From Perna viridis (lineage: Eukaryota): a stretch of 64,000 nt of DNA. Made by a program: the position numbers. The stretch covers positions 44,247,195 through 44,311,194 of the forward strand of contig CM074513.1 of the NCBI GenBank assembly GCA_037379345.1. The letters run 5' to 3'. This document shows positions 36,801 to 39,800 of the stretch, piece after piece (position 1 is the stretch's first letter; every line of letters begins with the position of its first letter).

Positions 36801-39800
36801 ATTTCCAATATGCTCAACGTGTTATTGGAAATGGGAAATGTTTCAAGATTTTATTTACAATGTCTGTGTTTTTCTATTACGATTGTGATCAATTGTGTTA
36901 CGATTCATTTGTTTTTACATGCAATTTATTTGGTGGATGCTTGACATTTTTTTTGTATTGATTTTTTGTTTTTTTGTTTTTGTTTTTGTTGGTTTTTTAT
37001 ATTGTTTTGTTTTTGTTTTTGTTGGTTTTTTATATTGTTTTGTTTTTCTTTTTGTTTTTTTCTATGCGTATTTTTCTTTTACATTTTAAAGTGTGTCAAG
37101 TGTGTCATGACGTTGGATTATTGTGTGTCAAAACGTAAAGTTGAAAGATTGCGCCACATATCTTGCAACTAAAACTTATTTCCTTTTACAATTTTATATA
37201 TTTGAAAGAATCTACTACAGAAACCGCCCGTAATGAGCAAATGCATGCTAAGAGGAACCTTTCTTTTACAAGCAGATGTTTCTATTCGAAAAATCTGCAA
37301 ATTGCTAAAATATGCTAAAATATGTTAAAGGAGTTATATAGAAATAATAAACTGTCTAAAGGTAGTTTGCATTTCAAAAATACTTGAATATATGAATTTT
37401 CTTTCCAAAATTACCTTTGATAACGATTGATATATAGCAATAGAATGTGTCAGGTAGTTATCGAGATACATTTGAAACTTTCTTGTATGTACATCTTTTA
37501 GTGTTGCACATAAAACTTCATTAGAAAAATCTGCATTATCACATAAATGTCTCCTGCATTTTACAAGACAATCTAACTTTCCACTGATGATGTTGTTTCC
37601 ATATTAAATTGATTACAATTGTGACAGGGTTTCTTTTTACCTTTATGGACTAGTATGTCATAAACAGCAACCCTATCGAACACTCGTTTCATTATTTAAT
37701 TTGGAGAGGTGTGAAGTAAATATTGACTACTTTATAGTGAGATATTTTTCTCTTGTAAATATTAACGTTTCTTGTTGTGATCTTTTAATTGTCGATAAAA
37801 TGAAGGTTTCTCCTTAATTTACATAAAAAAGAAACCCATTCGTGTATATTTTGAGGATTCAATGTTACATTTTTACCCCTACTGAAGTGCCAAAATATTA
37901 AATTTGACTCTCATAATATCTTACAAGGCCAAGATTATTACCGTCTATGTAATGTTTTGTGGTGTTGTTTTTTCTTTTGTGTGTGTATTCTGTGTTTTCG
38001 TTTTATTTGTATTTTTGTTATTGTTTCGTTTTTTTTTTTGGTTTTTTTTTGGTTTTTTTTTTTTTTTTTTGGGGGGGGGTTGTGTTTGTGGGTGTGTGCT
38101 TTATGTTTTACGTGAAATTGTGAAATTTTAAAACAAAGTGTTTTTCTTTAAAATGAATCCTCTAACTACTAAGCAAAAAATACAAATTTAAAAGATATAC
38201 TTTAAAGAGCAGAATATTTAGATTCTAAATACAGGTAGAAAACATTGTTTATATATAAAAAAAAGTTTAAAAGTCATTGTACTTTCATTTTCATTATGCT
38301 TAATGGTTAGAGAAACACCGTGGTAATCACAATAACGTCGACTAGAATACTTTAAAGGATACAGTTAAGCTTCATAAAACAAACAAACAAAACAAAAAAA
38401 AAGTGAAGAGGGAAGATGATCTTGTGAATTTGTTCACCATTTGATCAACGTCAGAGCATGGAAGTATAATATCTGGTCTAGATATTATACTTCCATGGTC
38501 AGAGTAAAGACAATATTAAGGAATAATTCATCGCACACTTAATTGTCCTCATTTTAGTTGAACCGGAAGCCGTTGCTCTCTCCTCGTTGTCTTCCGTAGA
38601 CAGTTCAAAGATATTTGATTTAATTATCAGATCTTTTTTATGTGTATTACAGCAGGATACTATAGTAATAAAACAGTAAACTACAGGATAACGGAATATG
38701 AGTAGAAATCTGACGAAACTTTCGATATCTACTGCAAGTGAATGAGATAATAATAGCGCAAGACAAAAAGGAAATTGCATATCCAATATAGTAGTCTGGA
38801 AAATTGAAGTCTGCATCTGGAAAGCTATTAATGAAAGGAGTACGGCCATCTGGAACTAAACATAAACTACATTTATATATTGATACAGGCGTGTCAGTTA
38901 TTGACGCTTTGGAGTAATTCATCTTCCTTAATCGATATCAGTAATAAATTGTGAGTTAACTAGGGCAACAGGCCATTAAATTGTTGGAGAATTTGTTGAT
39001 TACAAGCTTGCAAGTTCAAGACATGAATAAGCTTCAAAGAGATTTTGGAACTAAGGTGGAAGGAAATAGATATTTAATTTAAGCAATCATAAAAGGTTGT
39101 CAGATTTATCGAATTATGGCCGTAATTTACTTAACTGCAAGTTTTAGATGTACATATTCAGGTATTATATCGTTATCATGATTTATCATACGATACAAAA
39201 GGTGTTCAACTATTGAACGATTTTAATGCAATAGGTTTTTTTATGTTTATGCCTACCTACTTTCCAGTTAAGATCATGAACAGCCAACTATTTGGCATGA
39301 TGAACGGAAAATAAAATCATTTAAGAACACATTTATCTCTCATAAAAATGTATCTAAAACACAGGAAAGTTTTCCAAGAGTACAATCGACTAGAAGAGCG
39401 AACCAATGTAAAAAAACTAATCTTTGATCATATAAACAATGCTTTAAAATCAGCACCTATAATCATAGATAGTAGATTCTTTTGCTCCCTTATTACCGTA
39501 CCATATGTTATCAATATAAATAATTTAGTTTATTGTAAAGTTCGTGATCTCTGATGGATAAACAACTACATGATATGACTGTAAACAAAGAATACCTGTC
39601 TCTGAAATAAATGTTAATTAACAGAATTATTGACTCTACTACTCTTCTTTGAATCTGAAGAGGTGCCAGATAAATGGATAGTAAGTGCTTACGTATAGAT
39701 TATTTCTCTGGATTTTATGTTACAAATTACGACGGTTTTATGACAACGTGGATTATAAGGTTATTTTAAGAACTTTTTTAATGGAATTAATAAATTAATG

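What the first reader, a model, noticed from the sequence alone, without database searches (positions are those of the whole stretch)
38450..38504. Apparent P-element excision footprint: two 18-bp TIR stubs between a 7-bp target duplication
Seen: GTCAGAG, a perfect 18-bp inverted repeat starting CATGG with a 5-nt spacer (41 bp in total), then GTCAGAG again. Established: P-superfamily elements have CANRG termini and 7-8-bp TSDs. Drosophila P transposase cuts with a 17-nt stagger, so end-joining often leaves about 15-18 bp of each TIR at the donor site. Inference: a P/THAP9-type transposon excised here using similar long-stagger chemistry in a non-insect lineage. The unmutated arms and TSD suggest it was recent. 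An internally deleted MITE is the alternative.
Basis: partly seen in the sequence, partly recalled or inferred. Interest (0 to 1): 0.75.

Follow-up and report, generated by a model that had tools for sequence, protein, structure and literature searches.

The report
Probable transposon excision scar, mollusc
A 41-base perfect hairpin flanked by a 7-base duplication in a mollusc genome is almost certainly the leftover ends of a cut-and-paste transposon, most likely the scar left when it jumped out, but its family could not be identified here.

Summary
It is far beyond chance. It is the only perfect hairpin with arms over 11 nt in the window. In 200 simulated windows no arm exceeded 15 nt and no hairpin had a flanking repeat of 5 nt or more. 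The host is a mollusc, most like bivalves. The layout matches experimentally sequenced Drosophila P-element excision junctions, which read duplication, up to 17 nt, a short insert, up to 17 nt, duplication. By my count 32 of 66 published junctions keep at least 13 nt of both ends, and one is 17+5+15. Seven-base duplications occur in the P superfamily (Galileo) but also in some hAT families. The deciding tests could not be run, because no eukaryotic genome collection was open. These tests are other copies of the 18-mer, longer elements, and the partner transposase. The window holds no second copy and no transposase remnant nearby. My best reading is a P-type excision footprint (about 0.4). The main rivals are a Made1-like ends-only mini-element and an in-place internal deletion. 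The stagger cannot be pinned (17 to 23 nt). Interest is modest.

The parts
38450..38456 (.). left copy of the 7-nt target-site duplication (GTCAGAG)
   Evidence: direct repeat is exactly 7 nt
38457..38474 (+). left terminal-inverted-repeat stub, 18 nt, begins CATGG
38475..38479 (.). 5-nt spacer GGTCT: junction filler or inner repeat sequence of one end; no template found nearby beyond chance
38480..38497 (-). right terminal-inverted-repeat stub, 18 nt, perfect reverse complement of the left stub
38498..38504 (.). right copy of the 7-nt target-site duplication (GTCAGAG)

Best explanation
A cut-and-paste DNA transposon once inserted at a single GTCAGAG and duplicated it. This step is inferred from the 7-nt direct repeat. 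The element was later cut out by a transposase that nicks one strand at the element boundary and the other strand about 17-23 nt inside the inverted repeat, as the Drosophila P transposase does. Each chromosomal end kept a long 3' single-stranded tail made of the element's outermost bases. The two tails have the same sequence, so they cannot pair with each other. End joining filled them in and ligated them with a few extra bases between. What remains is duplication, stub, GGTCT, stub, duplication. The 41 bases lack any internal binding site or gene and are a dead scar. What is shown: the structure, its non-random nature, and its match to sequenced P junctions. What is inferred: that a longer element existed, that it was of the P/THAP9 type, and the length of the stagger.
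For: (1) Chance is excluded.
(2) A non-transposon origin does not explain a 7-nt direct repeat abutting an inverted repeat whose arms occur nowhere else in 64 kb.
(3) Drosophila P transposase cuts 17 nt inside the repeat and leaves 17-nt 3' tails on the donor (passages read in PMC7776569, and PMC2895639).
(4) In Table 1 of PMC2895639 (section read), by my count 32 of 66 end-joined junctions keep at least 13 nt of both tails, and 18 of 66 carry inserted bases. One junction is 17 + TTTAT + 15. Mean insert length in flies with wild-type polymerase theta is 5.5 nt. The locus here reads 18+5+18 or 17+7+17.
(5) The other cut-and-paste mechanisms I recall do not leave long repeat stubs: hAT, Mutator and Transib leave hairpins on the flanks, Tc1/mariner leaves 2-3-nt tails, and piggyBac excises precisely. 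These mechanisms are partly seen in abstracts listed (PMC5499845, PMC7351741) and are otherwise recalled.
(6) Seven-nt duplications are the rule for Galileo, a P-superfamily element (PMC4168063 passages).
(7) The stub begins CATG like the Drosophila P end and CAT like zebrafish Pdre2.
Against: No second copy of the 18-mer exists in the window at up to 3 mismatches or in looser prefix scans. Nothing therefore shows that it is the end of a longer element.

No transposase remnant lies nearby: 22 of 22 stop-free frames of 70 aa or more in 30-46 kb have no Pfam family.

The perfect arms are 18 nt, one more than the 17-nt maximum in flies. This needs either a longer stagger or the 17+7+17 reading, where the 18th pair arises by chance at about 0.29.

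The spacer has no templated signature: 1353 of 2000 random spacers match the flanks as well.

Beyond CATG the stub is no more like the fly P tail than chance: 6 of 13 positions by eye, P = 0.21. Its first 11 nt match fly P at 6 of 11 and Pdre2 at 5 of 11 (by eye). That is far from Repbase's rule of one mismatch in 11.

A 7-nt duplication also occurs in some hAT families. CANRG is recalled and not verified. That molluscs carry P-type transposases is recalled and shown by no call: one search reports only THAP-domain gene expansions in the oyster.
Confidence: 0.4

Rival explanations
1. A miniature ends-only element (two terminal repeats plus a few bases, like human Made1) that was made elsewhere and inserted here as a 41-mer, creating the 7-nt duplication itself.
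For: The same architecture exists. Made1 is two 37-bp repeats around 6 bp (PMC1784062, abstract and passages). Most non-autonomous Galileo copies are repeats plus a spacer (PMC4168063 passage). P-superfamily repeats can be short: 13 bp in Pdre2. An 18-bp full repeat is therefore plausible. The perfect arms and duplication fit a recent insertion.
Against: There is only one copy in 64 kb. At 41 nt it would be about half the size of Made1 and shorter than any miniature element I can recall. P-type transposases bind sites internal to the terminal repeat (figure legends in PMC7776569), and a 41-mer lacks such sites. No genome-wide count was possible.
Confidence: 0.25
2. A resident element of any superfamily lost its interior in place, without the stub length reflecting a staggered cut. 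The cause would be repair synthesis from a sister copy that stopped just after it began and was then joined, or a spontaneous deletion between the two repeats.
For: Incomplete repair synthesis followed by end joining is the commonest outcome after P excision in wild-type flies (PMC2895639 passage), and gap repair is described as the source of defective copies. The 23+18 or 20/21 readings need no inserted bases.
Against: Both breakpoints would lie within 23 nt of the ends. That is unlikely for an unguided deletion, although ascertainment by eye weakens this argument. The repair-synthesis version still starts from a transposase cut, so it overlaps with the best explanation.
Confidence: 0.2
3. 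The structure is not transposon-derived. It would be a replication template switch or snap-back synthesis at a break that copied adjacent sequence in inverse orientation, or an assembly artefact.
For: Snap-back and templated insertions do create short inverted repeats at repaired breaks (PMC2895639 passages).
Against: Copying the left arm in reverse would continue into the reverse complement of GTCAGAG, not into a direct copy of it (sequence logic). A 7-nt direct repeat exactly abutting both arms has an expected frequency of about 2e-8 per window. I recognised no adapter or vector, from memory only and with no tool check.
Confidence: 0.04

Closest known systems
Drosophila melanogaster P-element excision junctions (donor-site footprints after the 17-nt staggered cut)
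   Same: The order of parts is the same: target duplication, up to 17 nt of the left repeat, 0-15 inserted bases, up to 17 nt of the right repeat, target duplication (Table 1 of PMC2895639). The end begins CATG.
   Different: The duplication is 7 nt here, not 8. The perfect arms are 18 nt, not 17 or less. The host is a mollusc. The repeat sequence is otherwise unrelated (6 of 13 positions after CATG). No parent element is known.
Galileo and 1360 (P superfamily, Drosophila)
   Same: Galileo makes 7-nt target duplications with consensus GTANTAC, and most of its defective copies are repeat-spacer-repeat. The duplication here also begins GT and is partly palindromic (4 of 6 symmetric positions pair, item I4).
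   Different: Galileo repeats are hundreds of bases long and its copies are large. The duplication here matches the Galileo consensus at only 3 of the 6 specified positions (by eye). The 7-nt duplication of 1360 is recalled, not read.
Made1 (human 80-bp miniature element derived from Hsmar1)
   Same: It is two terminal repeats around a spacer of a few bases and a near-perfect palindrome.
   Different: Made1 is a Tc1/mariner derivative with a TA duplication (recalled), has 37-bp arms, and is multicopy. Here the arms are 18 bp, the duplication is 7 nt, and the copy number is unknown (1 in 64 kb).
hAT-superfamily elements with 7-bp duplications
   Same: The 7-nt duplication is the same (existence implied by the Repbase example), and the end begins CA.
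   Different: CATGG does not fit the recalled hAT end motif YARNG at position 3. hAT excision leaves flank-derived palindromes, not repeat stubs (recalled; abstract of PMC5499845).

Membership tests
P superfamily (P, Galileo, 1360, THAP9/Pdre) | 7- or 8-nt target-site duplication | tested here: met
   Exactly 7 nt. 8 bp for P and Pdre2; 7 bp, rarely 8, for Galileo. Not exclusive to P: hAT families with 7-bp duplications are mentioned.
P superfamily (P, Galileo, 1360, THAP9/Pdre) | Terminal motif (recalled as 5'-CANRG) | tested here: inconclusive
   CATGG fits the recalled motif, but the motif could not be found in print (paper not held). The fly P end CATGA and the Pdre2 end CATAC do not themselves fit its last two positions.
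P superfamily (P, Galileo, 1360, THAP9/Pdre) | Partner transposase with a THAP domain, an RNase H-like DDE core and a GTP-binding insertion | not testable with these tools
   No eukaryotic genome collection was available. Within the window, 35 stop-free frames were scanned and matched only RVT_1 (2 frames) and SMC_N (1 frame, below the cut-off).
P superfamily (P, Galileo, 1360, THAP9/Pdre) | Repbase rule for non-autonomous elements: same duplication length, and positions 1-11 of the end align with at most 1 mismatch to a classified member | tested here: inconclusive
   Only two reference ends were in hand: fly P matches at 6 of 11 and Pdre2 at 5 of 11 (by eye). Both fail the rule. Repbase itself was not available.
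P superfamily (P, Galileo, 1360, THAP9/Pdre) | Long staggered cut, so donor scars keep about 13-17 nt of each end | tested here: met
   The stubs read as 18+18 (or 17+17 with a 7-nt insert), compared with 32 of 66 fly junctions that keep at least 13 nt of both tails. This is an anatomical match only; the cut itself was not observed.
Miniature inverted-repeat element (Made1-like, ends only) | Terminal inverted repeats, no coding capacity, target duplication | tested here: met
Miniature inverted-repeat element (Made1-like, ends only) | Many near-identical copies at different sites | not testable with these tools
   One copy in 64 kb. The genome was not searchable.
hAT superfamily | 8-nt (sometimes 7-nt) duplication and the recalled end motif YARNG | tested here: not met
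   The duplication length is compatible, but position 3 of CATGG is T, not a purine. The motif is recalled.
Tc1/mariner | TA target duplication (recalled) | tested here: not met
   The flanks are GTCAGAG, not TA.

The most novel reading that the evidence does not exclude
This is a natural donor-site scar of a P/THAP9-type transposon that was active recently in a mollusc, and its 17-23-nt stubs record the same unusually long staggered cut so far demonstrated only for the Drosophila enzyme. If so, the long stagger is an ancestral trait of the whole superfamily. Genome-wide scars of this kind would let cleavage geometry and end-joining habits be read directly from wild genomes.
Probability: 0.35. 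Interest if true: 0.55.

Novelty: new member of a known kind. Interest (0 to 1): 0.3.

Why it matters
In the papers I read, the 17-nt stagger is documented only for the fly enzyme. The zebrafish THAP9 preprint reports excision products but, in the passages I saw, no cut geometry. A family of scars with stubs of fixed length in a mollusc would show by comparative genomics that the long stagger is conserved. It would point to a recently active element and give a natural record of how that animal joins non-complementary ends. As a single, unplaced 41-mer it is an ordinary transposon remnant and changes nothing by itself.

Tried and rejected
More copies in the window. The 18-mer at up to 3 mismatches gave only the two arms. 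Prefix scans (12 nt with up to 2 mismatches, 10 with 1, 14 with 3, 18 with 5) gave scattered unpaired hits only.

The exact 10-nt prefix occurs twice more, at 51479 and 53350 (4 matches against 0.07 expected). However, 7- to 9-mers of the stub are not enriched, and 9 positions were tested. I take this as chance.

A scan for exact 10-nt inverted ends with a flanking repeat of 5 nt or more found 2 structures: the target and an unrelated 1.2-kb element. A looser scar scan found only the target, against 35 hits in 100 simulations.

No paralogous empty site exists. The flanks 37401-39600 match only low-complexity tracts elsewhere in the window.

Spacer as a templated insertion: the best template is 5 nt (TGGTC at 38496-38500), and 1353 of 2000 random spacers do as well. 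Rejected as evidence.

Similarity to the fly P tail is 10 of 17 positions (P = 0.013), but 6 of 13 once the shared CATG is set aside (P = 0.21). Rejected as evidence.

RNA reading: no Rfam family and no tRNA anywhere in the window, and the stem is too short for a microRNA precursor (recalled size). Not pursued.

Prokaryotic genomes were the only DNA collection open. They gave 12 single exact hits of the 18-mer, against about 17 expected by my arithmetic for 596 Gb. None is paired. In 2 of the 12 loci there is an inverted partner with 4 mismatches, at +805 and -323 nt. I take these as chance, and they are uninformative for a mollusc.

Literature. The stub string is not in the held papers. CANRG alone returned Candida gene names, and with 'transposase' and 'superfamily' it returned nothing. 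One search was badly framed and returned only shellfish papers. led to the Repbase rule. PMC5718144, PMC5753468, PMC8230255 and PMC7204232 added nothing on duplication length or scars.

Whether molluscs carry P-type transposases stayed unverified. One search shows only THAP-gene expansions in the oyster.

Not checked: the source genome, other individuals, the closed collections metagenome contigs and viral contigs, Repbase, and paper supplements. The Galileo copy tables and the zebrafish excision-product figures may bear on stub lengths.

Full report
What is there. GTCAGAG lies at 38450-38456 and an 18-nt arm beginning CATGG at 38457-38474. The spacer GGTCT lies at 38475-38479, the perfect reverse complement of the arm at 38480-38497, and GTCAGAG again at 38498-38504. 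The direct repeat is exactly 7 nt, and the perfect inverted repeat cannot extend outward. Going inward there is one mismatch (G/T), one further pair (G/C) and a central T. The 41-mer can therefore also be read as 20+1+20 with one mismatch. The window contains no N.

Is it more than chance? Yes. The window has 7 perfect hairpins with arms of 10 nt or more and spacers of 12 nt or less. This one has 18-nt arms, the next has 11, and no other has a flanking repeat longer than 2 nt. In 200 first-order Markov simulations the longest arm was 15 nt (once), and no hairpin had a flanking repeat of 5 nt or more. The analytic expectation is about 2e-8 per window. As single-stranded DNA it folds at -19.3 kcal/mol, z = -10.3.

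Host and surroundings. The window is 28-37% G+C. A single open frame at 58419-60062 (-) encodes a leucine-rich-repeat plus immunoglobulin-domain membrane protein. Its best named relatives are bivalve proteins: Pinctada 51%, Sinanodonta 51% and Pecten 49% identity. Gastropod proteins match at 41-44%. The host is therefore a mollusc, most like bivalves, with the order unresolved. I did not try to trace the unnamed records.

There are no tRNA genes and no Rfam matches. The flanks of the locus are unique in the window apart from T-rich and A-rich low-complexity tracts, so no paralogous empty site exists to prove insertion. All 22 stop-free frames of 70 aa or more between 30 and 46 kb have no Pfam family. 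The locus therefore lies in non-coding DNA with no transposase remnant nearby.

Other copies. The 18-mer occurs only as the two arms, even at 3 mismatches. Looser prefix scans give unpaired scattered hits. Two systematic scans for inverted ends plus flanking repeats return the target, one unrelated 1.2-kb element and one noise-level hit, at or below simulated background apart from the target. The only DNA collection open to me holds prokaryotes. The 18-mer has 12 single, unpaired hits there, about the number expected by chance, which says nothing about a mollusc. The string is not in the held literature.

What it is. A perfect inverted repeat abutted on both sides by a 7-nt direct repeat, with arms found nowhere else locally, is the signature of the two ends of a cut-and-paste transposon inside its target-site duplication. 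A template switch or snap-back copy of the left arm would run on into the reverse complement of GTCAGAG, not into a direct copy of it. I put non-transposon origins at a few percent.

How the interior was lost. The literature I read states that Drosophila P transposase cuts the 3' strand at the element boundary and the other strand 17 nt inside. Each donor end is left with a 17-nt, mutually non-complementary 3' tail (PMC7776569; PMC2895639). Table 1 of PMC2895639 lists 66 sequenced end-joined donor sites. By my count 32 keep at least 13 nt of both tails and 18 carry inserted bases. One junction reads 17 + TTTAT + 15. The mean insert in flies with wild-type polymerase theta is 5.5 nt.

The mollusc locus has the same order of parts and the same dimensions: 18+5+18, or 17+7+17 if the 18th pair is a coincidence (about 0.29). 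From recall, partly backed by abstracts seen, no other described cut-and-paste chemistry leaves long repeat stubs.

Limits of that evidence. The apparent symmetry is weaker than it looks. If the parent's repeat was longer than 18 nt, 23+18, 18+23, 20+21 and 21+20 with no filler give the same 41-mer. The stagger can only be bracketed at 17-23 nt. The spacer shows no sign of being copied from nearby sequence.

Assignment to the P superfamily rests on three soft features:
- A 7-nt duplication. This is the rule in Galileo, but some hAT families also have it.
- An end motif that I could only recall and not verify.
- The stub length.

After the shared CATG, the stub is no more similar to the fly P end than chance. 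It fails Repbase's 11-nt rule against the only two P-type ends I had. That molluscs carry P-type transposases is my recollection; one search shows only THAP-domain gene expansions in the oyster. Finally, a reader scanning by eye will notice only short palindromes, so the closeness of both break points to the ends is partly ascertainment.

Rivals. (a) A Made1-like ends-only miniature element inserted as such. The architecture is known, and repeat-spacer-repeat copies dominate defective Galileo elements. However, 41 nt would be unusually small, it lacks the internal transposase-binding sites that P-type elements use, and only one copy is seen. (b) Loss of the interior in place by repair synthesis that stopped early, or by spontaneous deletion. 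The first version still begins with a transposase cut and shades into the best explanation. I give about 0.4 to an overhang-defined P-type excision scar, 0.25 to (a), 0.2 to (b), about 0.04 to a non-transposon origin, and the remainder to other possibilities.

Age. There are no differences in 18 arm pairs and 7 duplication pairs, which cover 50 bases at risk. This gives a 95% upper bound of about 6% substitutions per site since the event, and better than even odds only below about 1.4% (this assumes neutrality and is inference). 'Recent' is fair, but I cannot translate it into years.

Verdict. The structure is a real transposon remnant. The P-type excision-footprint reading is the best single explanation and is anatomically well matched to experimental data, but its defining tests were out of reach. 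In kind it is a known thing (a donor-site scar or ends-only remnant) from an uncharacterised family in a mollusc. Interest is modest unless a genome-wide search turns up a family of such scars.

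Noticed in passing
window 48276-49525: An element of about 1.25 kb whose ends are inverted over about 90 nt at 89% identity. The outermost 24 nt are perfect from 48292 and 49509, and it is flanked by the palindromic TAATTA, so the duplication length is ambiguous. It contains an internal inverted repeat at 48364-48551 / 49159-48965. Two frames inside it have no Pfam family.
   Followed up: partly
window 29719-29919, 42097-42249, 49237-49438, 34006-34097: A dispersed repeat of about 160-200 nt at 86-92% identity. 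One copy lies inside the 1.25-kb element, in inverse orientation. It looks like a short non-autonomous element and was not classified.
   Followed up: no
window 46358-46858, 47655-48158, 49707-50085: Repeats of 400-500 nt at 76-82% identity that bracket the 1.25-kb element, one of them inverted. This may be a nested or composite transposon cluster.
   Followed up: no
window 51469-51489 and 53350-53359: The first 10 nt of the stub (CATGGAAGTA) recur exactly twice more, giving 4 matches against 0.07 expected. At 51469-51489 the match sits in a hairpin with 8-nt arms, with the CATGG end facing inward, the opposite of a scar. Shorter words of the stub are not enriched. I take this as chance, but it is unexplained.
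   Followed up: partly
window 14783-15885 (+): Fragments of a non-LTR retrotransposon reverse transcriptase: RVT_1 at 32.7 bits for 15170-15592, and 20.3 bits (below the cut-off) for 15655-15885, broken by stops.
   Followed up: partly
window 6952-7191 (-): An exon-sized frame matches the SMC N-terminal domain at 31.1 bits, below Pfam's cut-off of 40. By eye it resembles the N-terminus of cohesin subunit SMC3 (recalled).
   Followed up: partly
window 58419-60062 (-): An uninterrupted 547-aa frame for a leucine-rich-repeat plus immunoglobulin-domain membrane protein of the LRFN-like group, with relatives across molluscs. It was used here only to place the host.
   Followed up: yes
window 36914-37102, 37938-38103, 38373-38408: Long T-rich (TTTTG-like) and A-rich (CAAA-like) low-complexity tracts and a G9 run lie within 400-1500 nt of the locus. 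The scar therefore sits in simple-sequence-rich non-coding DNA.
   Followed up: no
window 28549-28812: A short tandem array with units of roughly 70-90 nt at 80-95% identity.
   Followed up: no
window 20534-21379 (-): A 282-aa stop-free frame rich in Ser, Lys and Arg with no Pfam family. It may be an exon of an unannotated gene or may be chance.
   Followed up: partly
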